Of a stretch of DNA of 64,000 nt, positions 7,651 to 22,614 are shown one piece after another. Origin of the DNA: Escherichia coli (GTDB lineage: Bacteria > Pseudomonadota > Gammaproteobacteria > Enterobacterales > Enterobacteriaceae); the NCBI RefSeq assembly GCF_045037415.1, contig NZ_CP173440.1, one strand, 5' to 3'. Both the position numbers and the translations under genes were made by a program. The notes below the pieces were generated by a model. That model made no database searches and was not told the DNA's origin. It saw only the letters and a program-made list of their open reading frames with translations. Position 1 is the stretch's first letter; each line of letters starts with the position of its first letter.

Positions 7651-8235
7651 TTACGCATGTGCCTGGAGGAGTTGGAAATCGTCGTGTTCGGGAAACATTA
7701 AACACAGGATGGCAGCGATCTGAGCCAGCACATGATCAGCTAGCTCACCATCCGGATCGACGGCCCACTGCATCGTCGCGCCAGCGATGACCGAGTGCAG
7801 GAGCAACTCAGCTGCCGCAGGAGCACCTGGGGGCAGTCGCTTGCGGATCCCCTCCACCACCGCGCGGTTCCGCTGGATCGCAAGCGTGCGTAGCTCCGGC
7901 ACCTGGAGCTCGTACCAGGAGATGAGATAGTTCACCGAGAAGTCGTTGCGAGTGTTCATGCTCCGAACGAGCACCTGCAAAAATTCCCAGAGCCCTTGCG
8001 GCCCTGCGCCTATCGGTATCGCATTCAGGTAATGCCGCACCTGCTCGACGCCGCGCTCCATCATCCTCACCAGCAGCGTATCGCGGTTGGTGAAGCGCTG
8101 GATTAACGCTGCGCGGGAGAGCCCCACCTCCTTTGCTACTCCGCTGAGCGTGAACTCTATGGGACCGCAACGCTTCAGCACTACGGTGGCGGCCTCGAGT
8201 ACCTCGTCATCGGACTTGAGCTTGGGGCGGGGCAT
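7651..8235 (-). CDS. mphR(A): TetR-family repressor MphR(A)
   Basis: 194-aa product MPRPKLKSDDEVLEAATVVLKRCGPIEFTLSGVAKEVGLSRAALIQRF... Confidence 0.9.
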   Translation of the reverse strand: MPRPKLKSDDEVLEAATVVLKRCGPIEFTLSGVAKEVGLSRAALIQRFTNRDTLLVRMMERGVEQVRHYLNAIPIGAGPQGLWEFLQVLVRSMNTRNDFSVNYLISWYELQVPELRTLAIQRNRAVVEGIRKRLPPGAPAAAELLLHSVIAGATMQWAVDPDGELADHVLAQIAAILCLMFPEHDDFQLLQAHA

Positions 8236-9473
8236 CAGTGTTCACCTTCTGTATGGGTTGGGGCGGAGGCTGTGGCTGCCGCCGCCATTGTAGCAAATTG
8301 AAGACGGAGCGAGAGTAGAGCCACGAGCCCCGCAAACACGGCCGATACAACGAGGCCAGGGAGCGGACCAGCAAGGTCGACAAACGCGCCGGCCGCAAGC
8401 ATAACCATGGGCGAGGCTGACAGCATCACCGCCGAGACCGTGCCGAGTACCCGGCCGAGAAGTTCTGGCGGCGTGCGGTTGTAGATGGCAGCGTTGAGAA
8501 TGGGAGAGACTGAGCCGGTCAGCAGTCCCACGAGCGCGCCCAACAACATCAGCACCGGCACGCCTGGCAACTGTGAAAGCAGAAGCGAGCCCACCGCAGA
8601 GCCACAAAATGCCACCGCCAGCCAGTTCTGCGCTGATATCCGGGCGCCGACCGACGCATGAATGGCAATGCCAAGGAGACCACCAGCCCCCATCATTGAG
8701 GAGAACAGCCCGAGCTCTGCTACTTGGCGTCCTGCATCTACAAACAGCGCAGGCATGATGACGCTGCCGTTGGCGCCAACGATGCCCACGAAGATCATCA
8801 CTATACCAAAGAGAGGGCGCAGCAGGGGTTCGCTCCAGAGAAAAGCGACGCCGGCGCGCATGGAGAGAGTCGCCGTCGTGGTCATCGTCCGAGCGGCACG
8901 CGCGGGAAGCACCCACGCGCCGAGCAGACCTGCAAGGACGGAGCAGAACGCCGTCAGCCCGAGCGTTGGCGCAGCGCCAAGCAGGCCGATTGCGGCCCCC
9001 CCAAGGGCCGGGCCACCTAGAATCGCGACGTTCCCGATCACCGCTTTCAGTGACGAGACGCGCTCAACGGAGAGCCCGGCGACGTGGCCGAGTTTGGGCA
9101 GCTCACTGTCCTGCGCGGCCATACCGGGTGCGTCGAACGCGGCACCGAGCACCACGCAAGCGATCAGCCCAGTGTTCGAGAGGGCGCCAACGGCATCGAG
9201 CAGTGGGATGCTCGCCATGGCCACGCCGCCCACCACACCCGAGATCAATGCGACGGGCGCGCGCCCGAACCGATCGACGAGGCCACCACCAACCCACGCG
9301 CCGATGATGGTCGCGATGACGCTGCTAGCGGCCGTGGCGCCCGCCCAGGCCGCGCTCTTTGTATGAGACAGGACGAACCATGGAAGCGCGAGGGCCGCCA
9401 CCGCGTTGCCGATCCGGAAGAGAAAGGTCGCCGCGAACAGCGTCGCGAGCGGGCTATATCGACGTTCGCTCAT
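8235..9473 (-). CDS. mrx: MFS membrane protein Mrx of the mph(A) operon
   Basis: 412-aa hydrophobic product between mph(A) and mphR(A). Confidence 0.9.
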   Translation of the reverse strand: MSERRYSPLATLFAATFLFRIGNAVAALALPWFVLSHTKSAAWAGATAASSVIATIIGAWVGGGLVDRFGRAPVALISGVVGGVAMASIPLLDAVGALSNTGLIACVVLGAAFDAPGMAAQDSELPKLGHVAGLSVERVSSLKAVIGNVAILGGPALGGAAIGLLGAAPTLGLTAFCSVLAGLLGAWVLPARAARTMTTTATLSMRAGVAFLWSEPLLRPLFGIVMIFVGIVGANGSVIMPALFVDAGRQVAELGLFSSMMGAGGLLGIAIHASVGARISAQNWLAVAFCGSAVGSLLLSQLPGVPVLMLLGALVGLLTGSVSPILNAAIYNRTPPELLGRVLGTVSAVMLSASPMVMLAAGAFVDLAGPLPGLVVSAVFAGLVALLSLRLQFATMAAAATASAPTHTEGEH

Positions 9474-10375
9474 TCCGCTGCGGCGAGCTGCGCCTTCGCC
9501 GCAGCGAGGTACTCTTCGTTACCCGAGTCGAGGGCGAAGAGTGCGTAGGTGACCGCCCCGAACGCAAGGCGCTCCGCGATGTGGTGGGCGAGCCGCGGCC
9601 ACACCCGGCCACCGGCCGCTTCATACGTGAGGAGGAGCTTCGCGAGCCCCTCTTCACCAAAGACCATAAGGTGCGCGGCCATGTCGATGGCAGGGTCATC
9701 AACGCGGGCCTCGCTCCAGTCGATCATCCCGCTGACGCGCTCCGTGTTGTCGATGAGCACATGGCCCACGTAGAGATCGCCATGCACCACCACGGAGAAA
9801 TCTGGCCACGACGAATCGTCGTCGAGCCAGCGCTGCCACCGGTGGAGGCGCTTGTCGTTCACCACGAACTCGCGTCGGACGCGGTCAACGTCGTCGGCCA
9901 CCTTCTGACGGGCCTGCGTCGGTGTACGGATGAGCATCCCCGCATCCACGGCGGCGGAAATGGGGACGGCATGCAGGGCGGCGAGCGCGGTCGCGAAGCT
10001 CTCCGCGAAGACCTCCGAGTCCTGCGGCACGACCCAGTCGGGCGTGGACGAACCAGGCTGGATGACCATCGCAGTCGAGTCTTCGAGCATGGGATAGGCA
10101 ACGAGCTCGGCGTTGGCCACGCGCCAGTCCGGCACCGCGAACGGCAGGCGATTCTTGAGCATTGCCAGCACCCGCGCCTCTGGTTCGACCTTCGCGCTTA
10201 CCTCGGCTCGGCGCGGGATGCGCAGCACCCACCGACGTCCATCGTCGACGGTGGCGATCACGATCCTATAGTCGAGCCCAAGCTCATTGACAGTCAGCGG
10301 GCCATGGAGCTTGAGCCCATGTCGGGCTGCAAGTGCGTACAGTTGGGAGGTATCGGCGGTCGTGACTACGGTCAT
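9470..10375 (-). CDS. mph(A): Macrolide 2'-phosphotransferase Mph(A)
   Basis: 301-aa product MTVVTTADTSQLYALAARHGLKLHGPLTVNELGLDYRIVIATVDDGRRWVLRIPRR... Confidence 0.95.
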   Translation of the reverse strand: MTVVTTADTSQLYALAARHGLKLHGPLTVNELGLDYRIVIATVDDGRRWVLRIPRRAEVSAKVEPEARVLAMLKNRLPFAVPDWRVANAELVAYPMLEDSTAMVIQPGSSTPDWVVPQDSEVFAESFATALAALHAVPISAAVDAGMLIRTPTQARQKVADDVDRVRREFVVNDKRLHRWQRWLDDDSSWPDFSVVVHGDLYVGHVLIDNTERVSGMIDWSEARVDDPAIDMAAHLMVFGEEGLAKLLLTYEAAGGRVWPRLAHHIAERLAFGAVTYALFALDSGNEEYLAAAKAQLAAAE

Positions 10376-10444
10376 GATTCACTCCTGAGGGCTTGACGGG
10401 TTTAGCCACCTAAATGTAACAGTCACGTCGGTTATATTCAATCC

Positions 10445-11264
10445 GGCACTGTTGCAAAGTTAGCGATGAGGCAGCCTTTTGTCTTATTCAAAGGCCTTAC
10501 ATTTCAAAAACTCTGCTTACCAGGCGCATTTCGCCCAGGGGATCACCATAATAAAATGCTGAGGCCTGGCCTTTGCGTAGTGCACGCATCACCTCAATAC
10601 CTTTGATGGTGGCGTAAGCCGTCTTCATGGATTTAAATCCCAGCGTGGCGCCGATTATCCGTTTCAGTTTGCCATGATCGCATTCAATCACGTTGTTCCG
10701 GTACTTAATCTGTCGGTGTTCAACGTCAGACGGGCACCGGCCTTCGCGTTTGAGCAGAGCAAGCGCGCGACCATAGGCGGGCGCTTTATCCGTGTTGATG
10801 AATCGCGGGATCTGCCACTTCTTCACGTTGTTGAGGATTTTACCCAGAAACCGGTATGCAGCTTTGCTGTTACGACGGGAGGAGAGATAAAAATCGACAG
10901 TGCGGCCCCGGCTGTCGACGGCCCGGTACAGATACGCCCAGCGGCCATTGACCTTCACGTAGGTTTCATCCATGTGCCACGGGCAAAGATCGGAAGGGTT
11001 ACGCCAGTACCAGCGCAGCCGTTTTTCCATTTCAGGCGCATAACGCTGAACCCAGCGGTAAATCGTGGAGTGATCGACATTCACTCCGCGTTCAGCCAGC
11101 ATCTCCTGCAGCTCACGGTAACTGATGCCGTATTTGCAGTACCAGCGTACGGCCCACAGAATGATGTCACGCTGAAAATGCCGGCCTTTGAATGGGTTCA
11201 TGTGCAGCTCCATCAGCAAAAGGGGATGATAAGTTTATCACCACCGACTATTTGCAACAGTGCC
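10445..11264 (-). mobile_element. IS26 copy 1 (820 bp, 14-bp IRs GGCACTGTTGCAAA)
   Basis: IRs at both ends; Tnp26 ORF inside. Confidence 0.95.
10497..11219 (-). CDS. tnp26: IS26 transposase Tnp26 (ORF-track frame; native 234-aa start is 6 codons downstream)
   Basis: [41 protein letters not shown]... Confidence 0.95.
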   Translation of the reverse strand: MLMELHMNPFKGRHFQRDIILWAVRWYCKYGISYRELQEMLAERGVNVDHSTIYRWVQRYAPEMEKRLRWYWRNPSDLCPWHMDETYVKVNGRWAYLYRAVDSRGRTVDFYLSSRRNSKAAYRFLGKILNNVKKWQIPRFINTDKAPAYGRALALLKREGRCPSDVEHRQIKYRNNVIECDHGKLKRIIGATLGFKSMKTAYATIKGIEVMRALRKGQASAFYYGDPLGEMRLVSRVFEM

Positions 11265-12283: not shown

Positions 12284-13103
12284 GGCACTGTTGCAAAGTT
12301 AGCGATGAGGCAGCCTTTTGTCTTATTCAAAGGCCTTACATTTCAAAAACTCTGCTTACCAGGCGCATTTCGCCCAGGGGATCACCATAATAAAATGCTG
12401 AGGCCTGGCCTTTGCGTAGTGCACGCATCACCTCAATACCTTTGATGGTGGCGTAAGCCGTCTTCATGGATTTAAATCCCAGCGTGGCGCCGATTATCCG
12501 TTTCAGTTTGCCATGATCGCATTCAATCACGTTGTTCCGGTACTTAATCTGTCGGTGTTCAACGTCAGACGGGCACCGGCCTTCGCGTTTGAGCAGAGCA
12601 AGCGCGCGACCATAGGCGGGCGCTTTATCCGTGTTGATGAATCGCGGGATCTGCCACTTCTTCACGTTGTTGAGGATTTTACCCAGAAACCGGTATGCAG
12701 CTTTGCTGTTACGACGGGAGGAGAGATAAAAATCGACAGTGCGGCCCCGGCTGTCGACGGCCCGGTACAGATACGCCCAGCGGCCATTGACCTTCACGTA
12801 GGTTTCATCCATGTGCCACGGGCAAAGATCGGAAGGGTTACGCCAGTACCAGCGCAGCCGTTTTTCCATTTCAGGCGCATAACGCTGAACCCAGCGGTAA
12901 ATCGTGGAGTGATCGACATTCACTCCGCGTTCAGCCAGCATCTCCTGCAGCTCACGGTAACTGATGCCGTATTTGCAGTACCAGCGTACGGCCCACAGAA
13001 TGATGTCACGCTGAAAATGCCGGCCTTTGAATGGGTTCATGTGCAGCTCCATCAGCAAAAGGGGATGATAAGTTTATCACCACCGACTATTTGCAACAGT
13101 GCC
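12284..13103 (-). mobile_element. IS26 copy 2
   Basis: 820 bp with IRs; identical to copy 1. Confidence 0.95.
12336..13058 (-). CDS. tnp26: IS26 transposase Tnp26
   Basis: Identical 240-aa ORF-track product. Confidence 0.95.
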   Translation of the reverse strand: MLMELHMNPFKGRHFQRDIILWAVRWYCKYGISYRELQEMLAERGVNVDHSTIYRWVQRYAPEMEKRLRWYWRNPSDLCPWHMDETYVKVNGRWAYLYRAVDSRGRTVDFYLSSRRNSKAAYRFLGKILNNVKKWQIPRFINTDKAPAYGRALALLKREGRCPSDVEHRQIKYRNNVIECDHGKLKRIIGATLGFKSMKTAYATIKGIEVMRALRKGQASAFYYGDPLGEMRLVSRVFEM

Positions 13104-13433
13104 ATGCCGGTGAGCGCCCTGATCTGCTTCTGCACCTGTCCCGACGCCGACAGCGCCGAGCGCATCGCCACCGCGCTGGTGGCCGAGCGCCTGGCCGCCT
13201 GCGTCAACCTCCTGCCCGGCCTGCGTTCGGTCTATCGCTGGCAACGCAAGGTCGAGGCCGCGGCCGAGGTCCTGCTGCTGGTCAAGACCAGTGCCGAGGC
13301 CTACCCCGCCCTGCAGGAACGCCTGCGCCAACTGCATCCCTACGAACTCCCGGAGCTGCTCGCGGTCGAAGCCGCGTCCGGCCTGCCCGAATACCTGCAA
13401 TGGCTGGCCGCCGAGAGCCGACCGGTAAACTGA
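13104..13433 (+). CDS. cutA: Divalent-cation tolerance protein CutA, ATG directly abutting the IS26 end
   Basis: MPVSALICFCTCPDADSAERIATALVAERLAACVNLLPGLRSVYRWQRKVEAAAEVLLLVKT...HPYELPELL has the CutA signature; high GC. Confidence 0.85.
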   Translation: MPVSALICFCTCPDADSAERIATALVAERLAACVNLLPGLRSVYRWQRKVEAAAEVLLLVKTSAEAYPALQERLRQLHPYELPELLAVEAASGLPEYLQWLAAESRPVN

Positions 13434-13437
13434 GCCA

Positions 13438-14469
13438 ATGACCGCATCCACGATCCGCCTGCGCCGCTGGCTGGCCGGGCTCGCCCTGCTGCTTGCGCTG
13501 CCCGCGACCTCGGCCGTCGCCCAGGACTTCGAACTGCCGCCGGTCGACGAGGTCTTCGTCCTGTCCGCGCAGGCCACCGCGCCGGACCGCATCGAGGTGC
13601 GCTGGCGGATCGCCGACGGCTATTACCTGTACCGGCACCGCACCTCGGTCAAGGCCGATGCCGCCTTCACCGGCGCGACCATGGCGCTGCCGAAGGGCAA
13701 GGCCTACCGCGACGAATTCTTCGGCGACGTCGAAACCTACCGCAAGGAATTGCTCGGCACCCTCACCGGCACGCCCGCGGCCGGCGCGAGCGCGACCACC
13801 CTGACCGTGAAGTACCAGGGCTGCGCCGATGCCGGCGTGTGCTACCCGCCGCAGACCCGCACCCTGAAGGTCGCGTTGCCGGGCGAAGCGGGCGCTGGCG
13901 GCTTCGGCTGTAAGGCGCGCGGGCTGCATGATTATGTCGTCAAGAACGGCTCTGCCGATCATCCCAACGCCGAGGTGAAATTCGCACTGGGTGATGTGGT
14001 CAACACCATGATCGGCTGCACTAATGGTGAAACGATCATGCTGTGCCACGACACCTCGCTGCCGCGCCCCTATTCTCTCGGCTTTCGGGTGCAAGGCACC
14101 GAGGGGCTGTGGATGGACGTCAACAAGTCGATCTATCTGGAGGGCAAGAGCCCACAGCCGCACCGCTGGGAGCCTGCCGAGGGCTGGTTTGCGAAATACG
14201 ATCACCCGCTATGGAAACGCTACGCCGATCTGGCGGCAGGGGCCGGGCATGGCGGGATGGACTGGTTCGTGATCCACGCTTTTGTCGAGGCGCTGAAGGC
14301 CAAGGCCCCGATGCCAATCGACATTTACGACGCGCTGGCCTGGAGCGCGATCACGCCTCTGTCGGAACAATCGATTGCTGAGGGCAATCGCACGTTAGAT
14401 TTTCCCGACTTCACCCGAGGGCAGTGGCGCACCCGCAAGCCGATCTTTGCGCTGAACGACGCCTATTGA
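13438..14469 (+). CDS. dsbD: Fusion ORF: DsbD N-terminal domain joined in frame to the C-terminal part of a Gfo/Idh/MocA-like oxidoreductase (the 'tat'/'dsbC' ORF of blaNDM contexts)
   Basis: N-terminal half has DGYYLYR and TVKYQGCADAGVCYPP (nDsbD motifs); C-terminal half is unrelated to the DsbD membrane and thioredoxin domains; GC content drops near 13900. Confidence 0.65.
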   Translation: MTASTIRLRRWLAGLALLLALPATSAVAQDFELPPVDEVFVLSAQATAPDRIEVRWRIADGYYLYRHRTSVKADAAFTGATMALPKGKAYRDEFFGDVETYRKELLGTLTGTPAAGASATTLTVKYQGCADAGVCYPPQTRTLKVALPGEAGAGGFGCKARGLHDYVVKNGSADHPNAEVKFALGDVVNTMIGCTNGETIMLCHDTSLPRPYSLGFRVQGTEGLWMDVNKSIYLEGKSPQPHRWEPAEGWFAKYDHPLWKRYADLAAGAGHGGMDWFVIHAFVEALKAKAPMPIDIYDALAWSAITPLSEQSIAEGNRTLDFPDFTRGQWRTRKPIFALNDAY

Positions 14470-14479
14470 TCGACGCGAT

Positions 14480-15118
14480 TTAGGCCAAGCGCACCGCAAA
14501 GGCGAAATTGGTAATCTTGTCGGTATCCTTGACGCCCGGCGCGCTTTCGACGCCGCTGGAGGTATCGACCAGCGGCGCTCCGGTGCGCGCAATCGCCTCG
14601 GCAACATTCGTCGGATTTAGCCCGCCTGCCAGCCCCCACGGCAAGGCACCGCGATATCCGGCCAGCAGCGACCAGTCGAACGCCAACCCCATGCCGCCGG
14701 GCAGCGCGCCTTTGGGGGTCTTGGCGTCGAACAAGATCAAGTCCGCCGCCCCGGCATAGGCTGCGGCGCGTGCGACATCGCTGGCGCTGGCGACGGGCAG
14801 CGCCTTCCACACCGGCTTGCCAAACCGCGCGCGCAACTGGGCCACGCGTTCGGGCGATTCCGAACCGTGCAGCTGCAGCGCGTTCAGCTTGGCTGCCACC
14901 AGTGCGTCGGCGATGACAGCATCATCCGCATCGACGAACAAACCGACCATGGCGATCTGGCCAGCTGCGCGCGATGTCAAAGCGCCCGCGACATTCGACG
15001 TAACCGCACGGGGCGACGCTGGATAGAACACCAACCCGGCATAGTCCGCCCGCGCCGCGATGGTCGCATCGAGCGCCTCGGGTGTGCTGATCCCGCAAAT
15101 CTTGATTTTCGCGGGCAT
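14480..15118 (-). CDS. trpF: Phosphoribosylanthranilate isomerase TrpF
   Basis: 212-aa product MPAKIKICGISTPEALDATIAARADYAGLVFYPASPRAV... Confidence 0.9.
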   Translation of the reverse strand: MPAKIKICGISTPEALDATIAARADYAGLVFYPASPRAVTSNVAGALTSRAAGQIAMVGLFVDADDAVIADALVAAKLNALQLHGSESPERVAQLRARFGKPVWKALPVASASDVARAAAYAGAADLILFDAKTPKGALPGGMGLAFDWSLLAGYRGALPWGLAGGLNPTNVAEAIARTGAPLVDTSSGVESAPGVKDTDKITNFAFAVRLA

Positions 15119-15122
15119 GCGG

Positions 15123-15488
15123 TCAGTCGGGGTTCTGGATCAGCCGCACCAGCGTGCAGTCGGGATCGATCAGGTAGCCGATCCTCAGGCCGCTCGCCTC
15201 CAGTTGCGGAGCTTTGAAGCGCGGCCAGCCGGTGCTTTTTTCCTCGGCTCCCGCCGCGTTCACCAATGCCACCATGGCATCGAGATCATCCAACCGCAGG
15301 CAACAGCCGAACGAGCTCGTAGCTGGGTCGAGGTCAGGATAGGGGAAGAATTCGAGCTGCAAACCGCCGCGCTGCAGGATCATCCAGCCGCGATCCTTCC
15401 AACTCGTCGCAAAGCCCAGCTTCGCATAAAACGCCTCTGTCACATCGAAATCGCGCGATGGCAGATTGGGGGTGACGTGGTCAGCCAT
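15123..15488 (-). CDS. ble: Bleomycin-binding resistance protein BleMBL
   Basis: 121-aa glyoxalase/bleomycin-resistance fold protein immediately downstream of blaNDM. Confidence 0.9.
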   Translation of the reverse strand: MADHVTPNLPSRDFDVTEAFYAKLGFATSWKDRGWMILQRGGLQLEFFPYPDLDPATSSFGCCLRLDDLDAMVALVNAAGAEEKSTGWPRFKAPQLEASGLRIGYLIDPDCTLVRLIQNPD

Positions 15489-15491
15489 GGC

Positions 15492-16304
15492 TCAGCGCAG
15501 CTTGTCGGCCATGCGGGCCGTATGAGTGATTGCGGCGCGGCTATCGGGGGCGGAATGGCTCATCACGATCATGCTGGCCTTGGGGAACGCCGCACCAAAC
15601 GCGCGCGCTGACGCGGCGTAGTGCTCAGTGTCGGCATCACCGAGATTGCCGAGCGACTTGGCCTTGCTGTCCTTGATCAGGCAGCCACCAAAAGCGATGT
15701 CGGTGCCGTCGATCCCAACGGTGATATTGTCACTGGTGTGGCCGGGGCCGGGGTAAAATACCTTGAGCGGGCCAAAGTTGGGCGCGGTTGCTGGTTCGAC
15801 CCAGCCATTGGCGGCGAAAGTCAGGCTGTGTTGCGCCGCAACCATCCCCTCTTGCGGGGCAAGCTGGTTCGACAACGCATTGGCATAAGTCGCAATCCCC
15901 GCCGCATGCAGCGCGTCCATACCGCCCATCTTGTCCTGATGCGCGTGAGTCACCACCGCCAGCGCGACCGGCAGGTTGATCTCCTGCTTGATCCAGTTGA
16001 GGATCTGGGCGGTCTGGTCATCGGTCCAGGCGGTATCGACCACCAGCACGCGGCCGCCATCCCTGACGATCAAACCGTTGGAAGCGACTGCCCCGAAACC
16101 CGGCATGTCGAGATAGGAAGTGTGCTGCCAGACATTCGGTGCGAGCTGGCGGAAAACCAGATCGCCAAACCGTTGGTCGCCAGTTTCCATTTGCTGGCCA
16201 ATCGTCGGGCGGATTTCACCGGGCATGCACCCGCTCAGCATCAATGCAGCGGCTAATGCGGTGCTCAGCTTCGCGACCGGGTGCATAATATTGGGCAATT
16301 CCAT
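15492..16304 (-). CDS. blaNDM-1: New Delhi metallo-beta-lactamase NDM-1 (carbapenemase)
   Basis: [64 protein letters not shown]...MADKLR; diagnostic residues P28, V88, D95, D130, E152, M154, A233 are the NDM-1 states. The ORF-track entry carries one extra Met. Confidence 0.97.
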
Positions 16305-16379
16305 CAAGTTTTCCTTTTATTCAGCATTAAAAACCCCGCAAATGCGAGGCCTAGTAAATAGATGATCTTAATTTGGTTC

Positions 16380-16408
16380 ACTGTAGCAAAAATATGGGGC
16401 GAATTCAA
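16380..16408 (-). promoter_or_regulatory. blaNDM promoter: -35 TTGAAT (16403-16408) in the ISAba125 end, 17-bp spacer, -10 TACAGT (16380-16385)
   Basis: Hexamers read on the minus strand ~76-104 bp upstream of the blaNDM start. Confidence 0.65.
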
Positions 16409-16494
16409 ACATGAGGTGCGACAGTTTCAAAAGCCATATGATAATCAACAAGCTGAGCAAATTTCTCTAATGGTGTAAGCCAATCTAACGCCTT

Positions 16495-17630
16495 TCTAAA
16501 TAACTGATCCTAATACCGCTACACTTTAGCCAGCCCGTGTTTTCCACCGGGGAATGGGCTGACGGTATCCATAAAGTGATGAACCTTTTTCAACAGATGC
16601 CACATTGAACGGCACTGGTGATTTCGGGTTATTGTCTCATGAAGCGCCTGCCACAACCGTTCGACATGATTGACCCATGGCGAGTAAACCGGCTGATAAA
16701 TGACCCTGAACTTCTGGTTTGCTTTCAGCCAGCGCAACGTTTCACGACTTTTGTGGATAATGTAGTTATCGACAATGAGCGTAATCGTTTTTGCCCGCCG
16801 GTATGTCGCCTTAAGATGTTTTAACAGTCTGATAAATAAACATGAACCTTTACTGTTTCCACCTACGTAGCTGACTTTTCCCGTACCGCTGTGCAGCGCA
16901 CCGGCAAGATAGTACTTTTCATTCTGGCCCGGTGTGACAACACGTTTTTGCTGCCCGCGTAACTGCCAGTCAGCACCGATTTTCGGGTTGAGATGAATAT
17001 CCACTTCATCTTCGTAAAACACGGGATTTTCCGCACTGCATTTCGCCAGTGCTTCATGGATAGCAACCATTTTTTCTTCTTTGTGTGGGTCACGGATACG
17101 CAGTGTCGGCGCTGCTCTGCGCCATACCAGCCCGGCTGCAGGTAACCATCTCCGGATGGTTGAGGCATGTAGCGGACAACCGGTGACATCACGGATTTTT
17201 ATCGCCAGCAGTTCGGTACTCCAGCGGGAACGCTGATAACCGAAATCGCCGGGAGAATGCTTCACAAGCTCACGCAGCAATGCGCAAATATGTTCGAACG
17301 GCCAGCGCCTGCCACGTCCTGACGGTAATGACTTCAGGCCTTCAGCACCAGACAGAGTGAACCAGTTAATCCAGCGACCAATCGATGAGCGTGCACAGCA
17401 GAGTGTTCTGGCCACATGACTGACGCGCTCGCCCCGGTGCAACATCAGCATGGCGGTCAGTCTGCGGGCATAATTTTTATCGCGTGTTTTATGGATAGCT
17501 TTCTGCATCAGGCGTCGTTCGTCACGAGGTATTGGTGCTATGATCGACATCGCTCAGTCCGTTTGGTGATTTGTTTTGATTTGGCGATTGATCAGATCGC
17601 ACAATTCGGGCTGAGTTCCCTCAAAGTGAT
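16495..17630 (-). mobile_element. IS630-family element (ISEc33/IS630-like) inserted in ISAba125; ends approximate
   Basis: Contains a complete 343-aa IS630-type transposase; ISAba125 sequence resumes on both sides. Confidence 0.45.
16519..17550 (-). CDS. IS630-family transposase
   Basis: 343-aa product MSIIAPIPRDERRLMQKAIHKTRDKNYARRLTAMLMLHRGERVSHVARTL... Confidence 0.85.
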   Translation of the reverse strand: MSIIAPIPRDERRLMQKAIHKTRDKNYARRLTAMLMLHRGERVSHVARTLCCARSSIGRWINWFTLSGAEGLKSLPSGRGRRWPFEHICALLRELVKHSPGDFGYQRSRWSTELLAIKIRDVTGCPLHASTIRRWLPAAGLVWRRAAPTLRIRDPHKEEKMVAIHEALAKCSAENPVFYEDEVDIHLNPKIGADWQLRGQQKRVVTPGQNEKYYLAGALHSGTGKVSYVGGNSKGSCLFIRLLKHLKATYRRAKTITLIVDNYIIHKSRETLRWLKANQKFRVIYQPVYSPWVNHVERLWQALHETITRNHQCRSMWHLLKKVHHFMDTVSPFPGGKHGLAKV

Positions 17631-17646
17631 CTACTATTCTGCACAG

Positions 17647-18585
17647 CTATTTAGGACGAGTATTCAGTGACATGGCAACTTGATTTAAATAATGCTGATC
17701 TGCCTGATTTAAATCAATCCCTTTAGGTAAATATTGCCTAATTAAACCATTCATATTTTCGCATGTGCCTTTTTGCCAGGGTGAATGTGGGTCACAGAAA
17801 TATACATCTATGCCTAAATCTTCTTCGAGTATTTTATGTTCTGACATCTCACGTCCACGGTCATAGGTCAACGTTTTACGCAGTTCTGCAGGTAAATATT
17901 TCAGAGCTTCAGTTAAAGCCTTGCGCACTGATTCTGCCTTTGCATCAGGTAATGTTGCCAAGATACAGAGCCGTGTATTTCGTTCAATAAGTGTTGCTAT
18001 CGAACTTTTATTGTCTTTACCTTTAATTAAATCAGCTTCCCAATGACCCGGTATTTTTCTTTCTTGAACTTCGGCTGGGCGCTCATGAATAGTTTTAATA
18101 TCCTGTAATATAGAATCTTTTTTAGGTTCACCGTTAGCTTTTCGCTTTTTATTTTCATGACGTAGACAGGATAATAAGTCTTTTTTCAACTCACCCTTTG
18201 GTAATGCTCGTATCGTTGAATAAATCGTTGTATGGCTTACATTCATTGTTTGATCCAAATCAGGAAATGTCTTTAAACGCTTTGCTATTTGCTGAGGAGA
18301 CCATAAACAACGGATCGCTTCAACAATAAATTTCCAGAGGATTGAATCGATTTTGAGTTTTCTGTGACCACGTCTACGTCTAGCGAAGGTGTTATCAGAA
18401 GCATATCGAGCTTGATAAACGTCATTGATGCTATTTCTTTTAAGCTCACGATAGATCGTACTAGGATGTCTTTTAATGAGTTCAGCAAATTTTCTGGCTG
18501 AAAAGCCTTCTTTTCTTGACTCAAGCATTAATGCAGTACGATCTTCAAAGTTAAGATGATGGTATGACAATTTTATATACTCCAT
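17647..18585 (-). CDS. ISAba125 (IS30-family) transposase
   Basis: 312-aa product MEYIKLSYHHLNFEDRTALMLESRKEGFSARKFAELIKRHPSTIYREL... Confidence 0.85.
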   Translation of the reverse strand: MEYIKLSYHHLNFEDRTALMLESRKEGFSARKFAELIKRHPSTIYRELKRNSINDVYQARYASDNTFARRRRGHRKLKIDSILWKFIVEAIRCLWSPQQIAKRLKTFPDLDQTMNVSHTTIYSTIRALPKGELKKDLLSCLRHENKKRKANGEPKKDSILQDIKTIHERPAEVQERKIPGHWEADLIKGKDNKSSIATLIERNTRLCILATLPDAKAESVRKALTEALKYLPAELRKTLTYDRGREMSEHKILEEDLGIDVYFCDPHSPWQKGTCENMNGLIRQYLPKGIDLNQADQHYLNQVAMSLNTRPK

Positions 18586-18736
18586 AAACCCTTTAAATTA
18601 ATTAGGTGGTTTATGTCGCACTTCAAGTTTTACTCTGCCAACTTTAAATCAGTGGCTCCACTAACACTCTTCACTTATTTATTTAAAATTTAGCGACGTT
18701 AAAAGACAATTAAGTATTTTTAGATAATGCTTAGAA

Positions 18737-19516
18737 TCAATTCAATTCATCAAGTTTTAAAAAATAATTCCTTTTGTCAGGTCTATCATTTTTTAAATGC
18801 TTTAAAAATATTTTAGCAGTTTCCTCCGAGGCATCCTCTCTTAGGCAACGTTCAACAAAGGATATATCTACAAATTCATCAGCTAACCCAGCACGGCCAA
18901 GATCTAAAAAGTAAATTTCATTGAATTTATCTATAAAAATATTACTATCCGTGATATCGCCATGAGAAAAAACCAATCTTTCTTCAACACGAGTCTCAGT
19001 TAACTCATTCCATAGACTTAGGTAAGTTCTATGGTCTCCCCATAATTCAGCGTCAAAATCATCTTGATCTATATCGTCAAGGAGTTGGTTATCAATAAAA
19101 AATTTTGACTCTTTTAACCGATGATCAATGTTTGAAATAAATGGACAATCAATAATAGCAACTGAATTTAACAGATTGAGTGCCTCCTTATAGATAGCAA
19201 GCAATTCTTGGTCTGTTAAAAAAAGCGCTGAAATTGGTTTTGCATTGATCGCTTTAGTGATCATTAATTCAAACTGCTCATCCTGAAAAGTCATGATGAG
19301 TTCAGGCACCTTTAATTTCTCAGAGAGCCAACTCAACATTTTCGCTTCGCGAGAGACACTGTATGTGGTCTCTGTATATAAAGTGCTAGATCGCTTAAGA
19401 AAAAAAGTTTCATTATTTCGATTAAAAGAATAAACATCCGATGGCGACTGACCAATTTTATTTGGCTCTAAAACGCTGTTTCCAATAAATTGTTGAATAA
19501 TATTGGGCAATTCCAT
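18737..19516 (-). CDS. aph(3')-VI: Aminoglycoside 3'-phosphotransferase APH(3')-VI (amikacin/kanamycin resistance, aphA6)
   Basis: MELPNIIQQFIGNSVLEPNKIGQSPSDVYSFNRNNETFFLKRSSTLY...; shares its first six codons with blaNDM-1. Confidence 0.93.
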   Translation of the reverse strand: MELPNIIQQFIGNSVLEPNKIGQSPSDVYSFNRNNETFFLKRSSTLYTETTYSVSREAKMLSWLSEKLKVPELIMTFQDEQFELMITKAINAKPISALFLTDQELLAIYKEALNLLNSVAIIDCPFISNIDHRLKESKFFIDNQLLDDIDQDDFDAELWGDHRTYLSLWNELTETRVEERLVFSHGDITDSNIFIDKFNEIYFLDLGRAGLADEFVDISFVERCLREDASEETAKIFLKHLKNDRPDKRNYFLKLDELN

Positions 19517-19621
19517 CAAGTTTTCCTTTTATTCAGCATTAAAAACCCCGCAAATGCGAGAGAGGTGGTCCCACTTGTTTGAACAACTAAAAGCGTATTT
19601 ATAAGTGATATTCCGCTCTAG

Positions 19622-19864
19622 TTAAGCCACCTTGTTTTGTTGGGGTAGCTGATCATAGTAAAACTCATTTGGTGTCATTTTGTCTAGACTCGAATGAGGT
19701 CGTTTCAAATTATAAAACTCAAAATATGCACTTAATTGCTTTTTCGCATCTGTGACACTGCTATAAGCTTTGAGATACACCTCTTCATATTTAGGAGAGC
19801 ATGAAAAACCTCGGGGCAGCCATCGAATGATGCCATCTACAGGGGTTAAAATAACCACCATCAT
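19622..19864 (-). pseudogene. C-terminal fragment of an IS3-family transposase (ISAba14-like remnant)
   Basis: 80-aa ORF ending ...YFEFYNLKRPHSSLDKMTPNEFYYDQL, typical of an IS3 OrfB C-terminus; family assignment from context. Confidence 0.5.
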
Positions 19865-20477: not shown

Positions 20478-20613
20478 CTGATGTCTATAAAGGTATACGT
20501 TTTCAGCATGCCTCTCAGATCCCCGAAAAAATGTCTATAAACCTCCCTAAATCAGTGTTTATGGATTATTCTTTAAATCTCTATGATGTTTAAAGACCTT
20601 CCGGAGGTTTTGC

Positions 20614-21186
20614 GTGCAATATGCCTACATCAGGGTAAGCTCGGCCGATCAGAATACGGCCCGTCAGGAAGAGGCATTGTCAAAGGCGGGTTTTCAGCCT
20701 GATAAAATTTGTGTTGAGCATGCCAGCGCGAAGGACACAAACCGCCCGGGGTTACAGGAACTCCTGGGGCAATTACGCCCTGGTGATACGCTTCTGGTTC
20801 ATTCCATCGATCGCCTTTGCCGGAATATGTCGGATATGTGCGCTGTCACCACCCGGCTTCGTGACCAGGGCGTTACCCTTATTTTTCTGAAAGAGCAGCT
20901 GACGTTCAGCGCCGGCACAAACAATCCGATGCAGGAACTGCAGCTGCACATGATGTCGGCATTCAGCCAGTTTGAACGAGCCTTACTGAAGGAAAGGCAG
21001 GCCGACGGCATCGCCGCGAAAAAAGCACGGGGTGAAAAAACAGGGCGCCCCGGCGCCGATATCAAAAAGATCCAGGAAATTGACGCACTCAGAAGCAGAG
21101 GGGTCAGGCTCAGGATCGCCTGCGACCATGCGGGCCTTGGCGTTTCCACATATTATAAGCTTCGTCACCAGATGAACAACCAGTAG
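20614..21186 (+). CDS. Small serine recombinase (resolvase/invertase family) encoded inside the ISKpn19-like element
   Basis: N-terminal YIRVSSADQ serine-recombinase motif and C-terminal HTH. Confidence 0.6.
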   Translation: MQYAYIRVSSADQNTARQEEALSKAGFQPDKICVEHASAKDTNRPGLQELLGQLRPGDTLLVHSIDRLCRNMSDMCAVTTRLRDQGVTLIFLKEQLTFSAGTNNPMQELQLHMMSAFSQFERALLKERQADGIAAKKARGEKTGRPGADIKKIQEIDALRSRGVRLRIACDHAGLGVSTYYKLRHQMNNQ

Positions 21187-21219
21187 CCGGGAGATAGTCA
21201 TCCACCACAGCAGGAGGCA

Positions 21220-22614
21220 ATGATGCAACTGACGCTCCAGATAGTCATCACCGATGAATCAGGCTCCAGTCGAACGGAGGAACTGATGACAATCCAGAAA
21301 TCAGGGGAAACCCGGAACGACATCGGATTATCGGTGTCAGAATCCAAGCTGTTGCTGAATACGGTCCAGCAGTCGGTGGTCCAGCTGCAGGCAGACGAAT
21401 ATACTCAACACCATATCCGGTGCCCTCACTGCCTTGCTGCGCGCAGAATCAAAGGCAAACAGAAAATACGGTACCGGACGCTGTTTGGCGTTATTCCGGT
21501 ATCCGGGCTTCGGGTGTACCGGTGCCGTTGTGAAGAGAGTGATACAAAGACAGTCAGTTTGCTCAGCGACTGGGCCGGCGATTATTCTCACCCGGCACTG
21601 AAATATATTGAAACCCGCTGGGCCTCGATGATCTCCTATGAAATGACGACTCGTCTGCTGAAAGATATTCTGCCGGTGGGCCACAGCCTGAATGCCTCAA
21701 CGGTGAGGAATCATTTATGCCAGGTGGCGCAGCGTCTTGACGCTGAGGCTGAAGCTCATTCAGGTTTTCTTTCCGGCTGCCCCCGCGACTGGGGGAACCT
21801 GCCCAGGCCAGGAAAACCGCTTGTGGTGGGTATAGATGGTGGTTATGTTCGCGATCGGGATGACAAAAAGCGTAATTTTGAAATTATTGCCGGGAAGTCT
21901 TTTTCCGTTGGTGCGCCTGCTGACACCCGCCGCTTCGGTTTTGTTCAGAAGGATGACTGTCATCCGGAACGCAGGCTCATGACCCACCTTTCAGCGCAGG
22001 GAATGCAGGCCAACCAGCAGATATTTTTTCTGTCCGACGGCGCGGATAATCTCAGGGACCTCCAGTTCGGTATGTACCCTGAGTCAACGCATGTGCTGGA
22101 CTGGTTTCATATCACCATGAGGCTGAAGGTGCTCATGCAATATGCCCGGGGACTGCTGGTATCAGATCCAGAGGCGGGGAGTAAAGTTCTGGCACTGCTG
22201 GAAAGCATTAAACGATATCTCTGGCATGGCAATGTTGTCGCTGCGCTGGAACATATTGATAATTGCGTTATGTATTGCGATGACCCTGAACTCAGCTATC
22301 CTAGCCTGAAATCCCTGCAAAAACATCTGGATGAAATGTATACCTACATCCGGAATAATAAGATGATGATCCCAAACTACGGCGAAATGCGTCGGTACGG
22401 AGAGCCGGTATCAACCGCGTTTGTGGAATCCACGATCAATGAAGTGATCGCCAGACGAATGGCCAAAAAGCAGCAGATGCAGTGGAGCAGAAAAGGGGCT
22501 CATTATTTGTTACAGACCCGGACCGCCGTTTTGAATAACGAACTGCAGGATAAATTTGTCTGCTGGTATCCGGGTTTTCAAAGTGACGGGAAGGGACCAG
22601 CGATGGCAGCATAG
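21220..22614 (+). CDS. ISKra4-family transposase (ISKpn19-like)
   Basis: 464-aa product; assignment from recalled family features and the ISKpn19-tnpR fragment-qnrS1 context. Confidence 0.7.
   Translation: MMQLTLQIVITDESGSSRTEELMTIQKSGETRNDIGLSVSESKLLLNTVQQSVVQLQADEYTQHHIRCPHCLAARRIKGKQKIRYRTLFGVIPVSGLRVYRCRCEESDTKTVSLLSDWAGDYSHPALKYIETRWASMISYEMTTRLLKDILPVGHSLNASTVRNHLCQVAQRLDAEAEAHSGFLSGCPRDWGNLPRPGKPLVVGIDGGYVRDRDDKKRNFEIIAGKSFSVGAPADTRRFGFVQKDDCHPERRLMTHLSAQGMQANQQIFFLSDGADNLRDLQFGMYPESTHVLDWFHITMRLKVLMQYARGLLVSDPEAGSKVLALLESIKRYLWHGNVVAALEHIDNCVMYCDDPELSYPSLKSLQKHLDEMYTYIRNNKMMIPNYGEMRRYGEPVSTAFVESTINEVIARRMAKKQQMQWSRKGAHYLLQTRTAVLNNELQDKFVCWYPGFQSDGKGPAMAA

What the first reader, a model, noticed from the sequence alone, without database searches (positions are those of the whole stretch)
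16390..17650. IS630-family insertion in ISAba125 just upstream of the blaNDM promoter
A complete 343-aa IS630-type transposase lies between the ISAba125 transposase stop and the ISAba125 end that supplies the blaNDM -35. The -35/-10 pair at 16380-16408 appears intact, but the insertion changes upstream context and makes ISAba125 unable to move as a unit.
Basis: partly seen in the sequence, partly recalled or inferred. Interest (0 to 1): 0.35.

Follow-up and report, generated by a model that had tools for sequence, protein, structure and literature searches.

The report
Known IS630-type insertion upstream of blaNDM-1
A 1.15-kb IS630-family insertion sequence sits inside ISAba125 just upstream of the carbapenemase gene blaNDM-1; it leaves the gene's promoter untouched, and the same arrangement is already described in over a hundred sequenced Klebsiella and E. 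coli plasmids.

Summary

**The element.** A 1153-bp IS630-family element lies at 16499-17651, with a 343-aa transposase on the minus strand. It sits inside ISAba125 (16398-18639), flanked by a TA duplication in a cTAg target.

**ISAba125.** Removing the insert and one TA restores a 1087-bp ISAba125 identical to Acinetobacter copies.

**The promoter.** The blaNDM-1 promoter is intact: -35 TTGAAT at 16403-16408 and -10 TACAGT at 16380-16385. The insertion lies 90 bp upstream of the -35.

The insertion is not downstream of the ISAba125 transposase stop. The native ORF runs to 16405, inside the terminal repeat. The insertion removes its last 30 residues, and the stop at 17647-17649 comes from the inserted element.

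**Naming.** The element is not ISEc33. It is 82% identical in DNA and 89.5% in protein. NCBI labels it "ISSpu2 family".

**ISEc33 comparison.** True ISEc33, in p271A-type IncN2 plasmids, occupies the same cTAg in the opposite orientation. That is a second, independent insertion.

**How common it is.** The window's junction occurs in 118 database plasmids and is described in the literature.

**Verdict.** Ordinary and already known, with low interest.

The parts
15492..16304 (-). blaNDM-1 coding sequence (270 aa plus stop)
   Evidence: The translation is identical to the NDM-1 CDS (WP_004201164.1) of pNDM-9c17.
16380..16385 (-). -10 hexamer TACAGT of the blaNDM promoter, outside ISAba125
   Evidence: Read from the sequence. 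Matches the published PNDM promoter. No mismatches to the uninterrupted locus.
16403..16408 (-). -35 hexamer TTGAAT of the blaNDM promoter, inside the ISAba125 terminal repeat. The native ISAba125 transposase stop TGA (16405-16407) overlaps it.
16398..16498 (-). blaNDM-proximal 101 bp of ISAba125. It includes the terminal inverted repeat (16398-16423) and the last 31 codons of the native transposase ORF, now cut off from the rest.
   Evidence: Inverted repeat I1. Alignment to L001. The reconstructed 1087-bp element is found exactly in L001.
16497..16498 (.). TA, one copy of the target-site duplication. The original target was cTAg.
16499..17651 (-). IS630-family insertion sequence of 1153 bp (the variant NCBI labels 'ISSpu2 family'). 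It has imperfect terminal inverted repeats: 18 of the first 29 nt match.
   Evidence: The boundaries come from alignment to uninterrupted ISAba125. Four independent copies elsewhere match end to end and carry the same cTA|...|TAg flanks.
16519..17550 (-). IS630-family transposase ORF of 343 aa, pointing the same way as blaNDM. It has HTH domains and a DDE domain, with D261 and E297 separated by 35 residues.
   Evidence: The exact protein was seen on 975 contigs.
17652..17653 (.). TA, second copy of the target-site duplication
17654..18639 (-). Distal 986 bp of ISAba125, including the other terminal inverted repeat (18614-18639)
17647..18585 (-). Truncated ISAba125 (IS30-family) transposase ORF: 311 native residues plus K. 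The stop TAG at 17647-17649 lies in the inserted element.

Best explanation
An IS630-family insertion sequence of 1153 bp transposed once, by the family's cut-and-paste mechanism, into the TA of a CTAG tetranucleotide. That site lies 99-102 nt from the blaNDM-proximal end of ISAba125. The element is the variant NCBI names 'ISSpu2 family', and its transposase gene points the same way as blaNDM.

The insertion duplicated the TA and split ISAba125 into a 101-bp promoter-bearing end and a 986-bp remainder. It also cut off the last 30 codons of the ISAba125 transposase.

The blaNDM-1 promoter and the 194 bp upstream of the ATG are unchanged, so blaNDM-1 expression is expected to be as in the ancestral arrangement. 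The promoter has its -35 inside the ISAba125 terminal repeat and its -10 just outside.

The interrupted ISAba125 is most likely a fossil that can no longer mobilise itself. The module now travels by IS26 and plasmid transfer.

The whole structure has been inherited unchanged and spread on Klebsiella and E. coli plasmids.

Shown here: the boundaries, the target duplication, the truncation, the intact promoter sequence and the wide distribution. Inferred: loss of ISAba125 transposase activity, unchanged blaNDM expression, and a single ancestral event.
For: - **Insert and restoration.** Alignment to the uninterrupted locus shows a 1155-bp insert with 0 mismatches on either side. Removing the insert and one TA gives a 1087-bp ISAba125 found exactly in pNDM-9c17.
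- **Boundaries.** Five independent copies of this element and its relatives, including IS630 of Shigella sonnei, all show cTA|IS|TAg flanks. This fits the published IS630 preference for TA within CTAG (reference list in PMC2170065).
- **Family.** The transposase matches the IS630 family model at 250 bits against a cutoff of 100.
- **Truncation.** The ISAba125 transposase loses 30 C-terminal residues. RefSeq annotates it as a pseudogene.
- **Promoter.** The hexamers match the published PNDM promoter. The insertion is 90 bp beyond the -35 and 194 bp from the ATG.
- **Distribution.** The identical junction is in 118 PLSDB plasmids, and 113 records cover at least 80% of the 2.4-kb region 16300-18700, the listed best matches at 100% identity.
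- **Literature.** 'ISAba125-ISSpu2-ISAba125' lies upstream of blaNDM, with IS26 downstream and aphA6 beside it, in K. pneumoniae hybrid plasmids (PMC8226487). The window matches those plasmids at 100% over 10445-32000.
Against: - No expression data exist for this arrangement compared with the uninterrupted one. The two transposase genes point towards blaNDM and no terminator-like site was found in 16250-17750, so some read-through contribution cannot be excluded.
- Loss of ISAba125 transposase activity is inferred, not shown. The NCBIfam IS30 model (267 positions) still aligns over positions 1-266 of the truncated protein, so the conserved core is retained and only the tail is missing.
- A single ancestral event is inferred from identical junctions, not from a phylogeny.
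Confidence: 0.93

Rival explanations
1. The insertion changes blaNDM expression. This could happen through read-through from the co-directional IS630-type and ISAba125 transposase genes, or through an outward-facing promoter at the IS end.
For: The IS630-type transposase gene, the ISAba125 transposase remnant and aphA6 all point towards blaNDM. No terminator-like site was found in 16250-17750.
Against: - No sigma-70-like site scoring at least 9 of 12 was found on the minus strand of the region.
- In the ancestral arrangement the ISAba125 transposase gene already reads into the promoter, so read-through is not new.
- The 110-bp region shown experimentally to drive expression is intact.
- The related ISEc33 sits at the same site in the opposite orientation on equally successful plasmids. 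This argues that orientation, and so read-through, is not needed.
Confidence: 0.08
2. The element is ISEc33, as many papers name the IS630-type element upstream of blaNDM and as the first reader proposed for comparison.
For: Papers on the same plasmid family write 'ISAba125-ISEc33-blaNDM-1' (PMC10808583; PMC12444185).
Against: - In IncN2 plasmid pNH25.5, NCBI labels the element 'ISEc33 family'. Its junction is 100% identical to that of p271A (NC_015872), pTR3 and pJN24NDM1.
- That element is only 81.9% identical in DNA and 307/343 identical in protein to the window's element. It lies in the opposite orientation relative to blaNDM.
- NCBI names the window's exact protein 'ISSpu2 family'.
Confidence: 0.03
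3. One reading: the IS lies in non-coding DNA after the ISAba125 transposase stop, so the ISAba125 transposase is intact.
For: An ORF of 312 aa ends at 17647, just before the insert.
Against: The native ORF continues for 30 more residues to a TGA at 16405-16407. The TAG at 17647-17649 is made of bases of the inserted element.
Confidence: 0.01
4. The arrangement is an assembly artefact, with a chimeric join of two repeated elements.
For: None found. IS-rich regions are prone to misassembly in general.
Against: The junction has a clean TA duplication. The same junction is present in 118 independently sequenced plasmids.
Confidence: 0.01

Closest known systems
ISAba125::ISSpu2-like upstream of blaNDM on K. 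pneumoniae IncHI1B/IncFIB hybrid plasmids, e.g. phvKpST395_NDM-1_1971 and phvKpST147_NDM-29 (PMC8226487)
   Same: Identical sequence: 100% over window 10445-32000. Same order of IS26-cutA-...-trpF-ble-blaNDM-[ISAba125::IS630-type]-aphA6. Same junction in 118 plasmids.
   Different: Nothing found. The window is an instance of this arrangement.
ISAba125::ISEc33 upstream of blaNDM-1 on IncN2 plasmids p271A, pTR3/pTR4, pJN24NDM1 and pNH25.5 (PMC3490853, PMC6499153)
   Same: An IS630-family element of 1153 bp at exactly the same cTAg of ISAba125, with a TA duplication. The break falls at L001 1667/1668 in both.
   Different: A different element: 81.9% DNA identity and 307/343 protein identity. It is in the opposite orientation relative to blaNDM, and ISAba125 is additionally truncated further upstream. 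The junction is in 29 plasmids rather than 118.
IS630 of Shigella sonnei
   Same: Same length of 1153 bp, a 343-aa transposase, TA duplication within CTAG, and imperfect terminal repeats.
   Different: 83.5% DNA identity and 304/343 protein identity. It is a related but separate member of the family.
IS3000-ISAba125-IS5-blaNDM on IncX3 plasmids
   Same: A second insertion sequence lies within the ISAba125 remnant upstream of blaNDM (gene order quoted in PMC6499153). That the promoter-bearing end is left intact is from my own knowledge.
   Different: A different IS family (IS5). The insertion site was not compared here.

Membership tests
IS630 family insertion sequence | Single transposase matching the family model, with N-terminal HTH domains and a DDE catalytic domain | tested here: met
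   NF033545 scores 250.5 bits against a cutoff of 100, aligned over 1-298 of 299 model positions. Pfam DDE_3 and HTH_32/23/29/33 also match.
IS630 family insertion sequence | Second D and E of the catalytic triad separated by 35 residues (DD35E) | tested here: met
   D261 (IVDNY) and E297 (HVERLW) have 35 residues between them. The catalytic role is inferred from the motif, not tested.
IS630 family insertion sequence | TA target-site duplication | tested here: met
   TA at 16497-98 and 17652-53, with a single TA in the uninterrupted ISAba125.
IS630 family insertion sequence | Terminal inverted repeats | tested here: met
   Imperfect repeats: 18 of the first 29 nt match between the two ends.
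IS630 proper and close relatives | Preference for TA within 5'-CTAG-3' | tested here: met
   All five copies examined, in five different contexts, show cTA|IS|TAg. The preference was published by Tenzen and Ohtsubo 1991, cited in PMC2170065.
ISEc33 (same element as in p271A) | Near-identity in DNA to the ISEc33 copy of p271A-type plasmids | tested here: not met
   81.9% DNA identity and 307/343 protein identity to the element of pNH25.5, whose junction is 100% identical to that of p271A NC_015872.
ISSpu2 (ISfinder entry from Shewanella putrefaciens) | Near-identity to the ISfinder reference sequence | not testable with these tools
   No ISfinder copy is available. The only support is NCBI's label 'IS630-like element ISSpu2 family transposase' for the exact protein.
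ISAba125 (IS30 family) | An element with terminal inverted repeats, identical to reference copies once the insert is removed | tested here: met
   16398-16498 plus 17654-18639 gives 1087 bp, found exactly in pNDM-9c17. The repeats are at 16398-16423 and 18614-18639.
ISAba125 as an autonomous element | Full-length transposase ORF | tested here: not met
   The last 30 residues are lost. RefSeq annotates the gene as a pseudogene missing its C-terminus.
PNDM promoter (ISAba125-derived hybrid promoter of blaNDM) | -35 TTGAAT, 17-bp spacer, -10 TACAGT, and an intact conserved 110 bp upstream of the ATG | tested here: met
   Read from the sequence. No mismatches to the uninterrupted locus over 16250-16496. 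Hexamers and the 110-bp region are as published.
Active transposable element (either IS) | Demonstrated transposition | not testable with these tools
   Needs a mating-out or papillation assay.

The most novel reading that the evidence does not exclude
The CTAG at nt 99-102 of ISAba125 may be a recurrent landing site for IS630-family elements. Two different elements hit it independently, in opposite orientations. Insertion there might be favoured in Enterobacterales because it disables the ISAba125 transposase while preserving the promoter-bearing end. That would stabilise blaNDM expression, or tune it according to orientation.

The evidence does not exclude this, but it does not require it. 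ISAba125 has only three CTAG sites, so a repeat hit on one of them has roughly a 1-in-3 chance. Sites close to blaNDM are also more likely to survive later truncations of ISAba125.
Probability: 0.08. Interest if true: 0.35.

Novelty: already known. Interest (0 to 1): 0.08.

Why it matters
It matters little beyond bookkeeping. The arrangement is a useful lineage marker for blaNDM modules on K. pneumoniae IncHI1B/IncFIB hybrid resistance-virulence plasmids.

One practical point comes from this check. Two different IS630-family elements occupy the same TA of ISAba125 in opposite orientations, and the literature and annotation pipelines use 'ISEc33' and 'ISSpu2' loosely for them. Studies that count 'ISEc33 upstream of blaNDM' may therefore merge two independent events.

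The insertion does not touch the known blaNDM promoter, so no change in resistance level is expected.

Tried and rejected
- **First junction guess.** A chimeric query joining 16498 to 17650 was 4 bases too long against uninterrupted ISAba125 (370 nt matched onto 366). The global alignment corrected it.
- **Candidate repeats rejected.** The inverted-repeat pair I5 (16496-16515 / 17635-17654) suggested ends that include CTAAATA. This was rejected because that stretch contains the duplicated TA and ISAba125 bases.
- **Promoter scan.** The consensus scan did not list the known PNDM promoter. It matches 8 of 12 positions and the threshold is 9, so the absence of other hits on the minus strand is weak evidence.
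- **Accessions not in the collections.** JF785549, JQ349086, MK368725 and KJ413946 were not found as typed. NZ_CP024879 was used instead, and the RefSeq forms NC_015872, NZ_JQ349086 and NZ_MK368725 then appeared among the hits.
- **E. coli genome search.** A search of complete E. coli genomes for an 'ISEc33' label under matches to the window's element found none. This fits ISEc33 being a different element.
- **Searches not run.** No large protein or metagenome searches were run, because the question was settled by plasmid records.

Full report
**What is there**

All the genes in this region run on the minus strand:
- trpF, 14480-15118
- ble, 15123-15488
- blaNDM, 15492-16304
- a 343-aa ORF, 16519-17550
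- a 312-aa IS30-type ORF, 17647-18585
- aph(3')-VI, 18737-19519

The 343-aa protein matches the NCBIfam IS630 family model at 250.5 bits (cutoff 100). It also matches Pfam DDE_3 and several HTH domains. The NDM protein is identical to the NDM-1 of an Acinetobacter plasmid.

**Boundaries of the insertion**

I fetched an uninterrupted ISAba125-blaNDM-1 locus from Acinetobacter plasmid pNDM-9c17 (L001) and aligned it globally with the window.
- Window 16250-16496 equals L001 1421-1667.
- Window 17652-18744 equals L001 1668-2760.
- There are no mismatches, and 1155 bp lie between the two blocks.

The uninterrupted sequence reads ...gcctttcTAggacg.... The insert is therefore a 1153-bp element at 16499-17651, plus a duplicated TA (16497-98 and 17652-53) inside a CTAG.

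Searching the 1153 bp against plasmids found end-to-end matches in unrelated contexts:
- Klebsiella oxytoca, 98.2%
- K. quasipneumoniae, 97.9%
- E. coli, 92.8%
- IS630 itself on the Shigella sonnei invasion plasmid, 83.5%

All of these show the same cTA|element|TAg flanks. This independently fixes the ends. It also fits the published IS630 preference for TA within CTAG (Tenzen and Ohtsubo 1991, cited in PMC2170065).

The ends are imperfect inverted repeats, with 18 of the first 29 nt matching. D261 and E297 have 35 residues between them, which is the family's spacing.

**ISAba125**

The ISAba125 terminal repeats lie at 16398-16423 and 18614-18639. Joining 16398-16498 to 17654-18639 gives 1087 bp, and this sequence is found exactly in pNDM-9c17.

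ISAba125 has three CTAG sites among its 82 TA dinucleotides. The one used lies 99-102 nt from the blaNDM end.

In uninterrupted ISAba125 the transposase ORF runs on to a TGA at window 16405-16407. That is inside the terminal repeat and overlaps the -35 hexamer.

The insertion therefore lies inside this ORF. It replaces the last 30 residues (RKALDWLTPLEKFAQLVDYHMAFETVAPHV) with K and a stop, and the TAG at 17647-17649 is made of bases of the inserted element. RefSeq annotates the same gene in an E. coli plasmid as a pseudogene 'missing C-terminus'.

Whether the truncated protein is inactive is an inference. The NCBIfam IS30 model still aligns over 266 of its 267 positions. The lost tail carries the RK-L---TP-E-F motif that I recall as conserved in IS30-family transposases. 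That conservation is my own knowledge and was not tested here.

**The promoter**

On the minus strand, the -35 TTGAAT is at 16408-16403 and the -10 TACAGT is at 16385-16380, with a 17-bp spacer. These are the published PNDM hexamers.

The -35 lies inside ISAba125 and the -10 lies outside it. The insertion is 90 bp upstream of the -35 and 194 bp upstream of the ATG. It is therefore well outside the 110-bp conserved region, which was shown by mutagenesis and band-shift assays to carry the promoter and the ArcA and ArgR2 sites (PMC12283253). No sequence known to matter for expression is altered.

Both transposase genes point towards blaNDM, and no terminator-like site was found in 16250-17750. 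Read-through is therefore possible. It was equally possible in the ancestral arrangement, where the ISAba125 transposase gene reads straight into the promoter.

**Is it known?**

Yes.
- 113 plasmid records cover at least 80% of the 2.4-kb region 16300-18700, and the listed best matches are 100% identical.
- The blaNDM-proximal junction is in 118 plasmid records.
- The exact transposase protein was seen on 975 contigs.
- Window 10445-32000 is 100% identical to the multidrug-resistance region of K. pneumoniae IncHI1B/IncFIB hybrid plasmids such as phvKpST395_NDM-1_1971.
- The paper describing those plasmids reports blaNDM 'flanked upstream by ISAba125-ISSpu2-ISAba125 and downstream by IS26', with aphA6 alongside (PMC8226487).
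- Other papers describe the same order and call the element ISEc33 (PMC10808583; PMC12444185).
- A global survey lists ISEc33 (n = 147) among the insertion sequences within 1200 bp upstream of blaNDM (PMC8894482).

**ISEc33 and the window's element are different**

The insertion named ISEc33 in IncN2 plasmids p271A and pTR3/4 was described with a TA duplication (PMC3490853). I fetched IncN2 plasmid pNH25.5 (L008), where NCBI labels the transposase 'ISEc33 family'.
- ISAba125 there is broken at exactly the same position (L001 1667/1668) by a 1155-bp insert.
- That element is only 81.9% identical in DNA and 307/343 identical in protein to the window's element.
- Its transposase gene points away from blaNDM.
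- Its junction is 100% identical in 29 plasmids, including p271A (NC_015872), pTR3 and pJN24NDM1.
- A partial protein that NCBI labels ISEc33 family is likewise 89% identical to the window's protein.

Two related IS630-family elements therefore hit the same TA independently. With only three CTAG sites in ISAba125 this is not statistically remarkable. It does mean that the two names in the literature cover two distinct events.

**Verdict**

Two things need correcting. The insertion truncates the ISAba125 transposase rather than lying after it. The element is the 'ISSpu2 family' variant, not ISEc33.

It is an instance of a widely distributed and already described arrangement. The sequence gives no sign of an effect on blaNDM expression.

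Noticed in passing
L008 (pNH25.5, NZ_CP024879.1) 20554-21708, compared with window 16497-17651: True ISEc33 of IncN2 blaNDM-1 plasmids sits at the same cTAg of ISAba125 as the window's element. It is in the opposite orientation and only 82% identical in DNA. Papers use 'ISEc33' and 'ISSpu2' loosely for both, so counts of 'ISEc33 upstream of blaNDM' may merge two independent insertions (29 versus 118 plasmids in PLSDB).
   Followed up: yes
window 13438-14469 (+): A 343-aa ORF starts with a DsbD-like signal peptide and N-terminal domain. It then continues into an apparently unrelated C-terminal part, between cutA and trpF. RefSeq annotates part of the corresponding stretch in a related plasmid as an incomplete hypothetical protein. 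It looks like the known fused remnant downstream of trpF in Tn125-derived modules.
   Followed up: no
window 12336-13058 (-) and 12513-13433 (+): An IS26 transposase gene abuts the cutA side of the blaNDM module. The module is therefore bounded by IS26 rather than by a second ISAba125, and only one ISAba125 is in the window. The literature describes this as an IS26-dependent composite structure.
   Followed up: partly
window 19622-19864 (-): An 80-aa ORF is a C-terminal fragment of an integrase-core transposase just beyond aph(3')-VI. RefSeq annotates its counterpart as a pseudogene missing its N-terminus. It is probably the ISAba14 remnant mentioned in PMC8226487.
   Followed up: no
window 8000-10445: This stretch does not continue collinearly in the best-matching plasmids, whose matches start at window 10445. 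This suggests an IS-mediated rearrangement that distinguishes this plasmid from its closest relatives.
   Followed up: no
window 16405-16408: The native stop codon TGA of the ISAba125 transposase overlaps the -35 hexamer TTGAAT of the blaNDM promoter. In uninterrupted ISAba125, translation of the transposase would therefore end within the promoter.
   Followed up: partly
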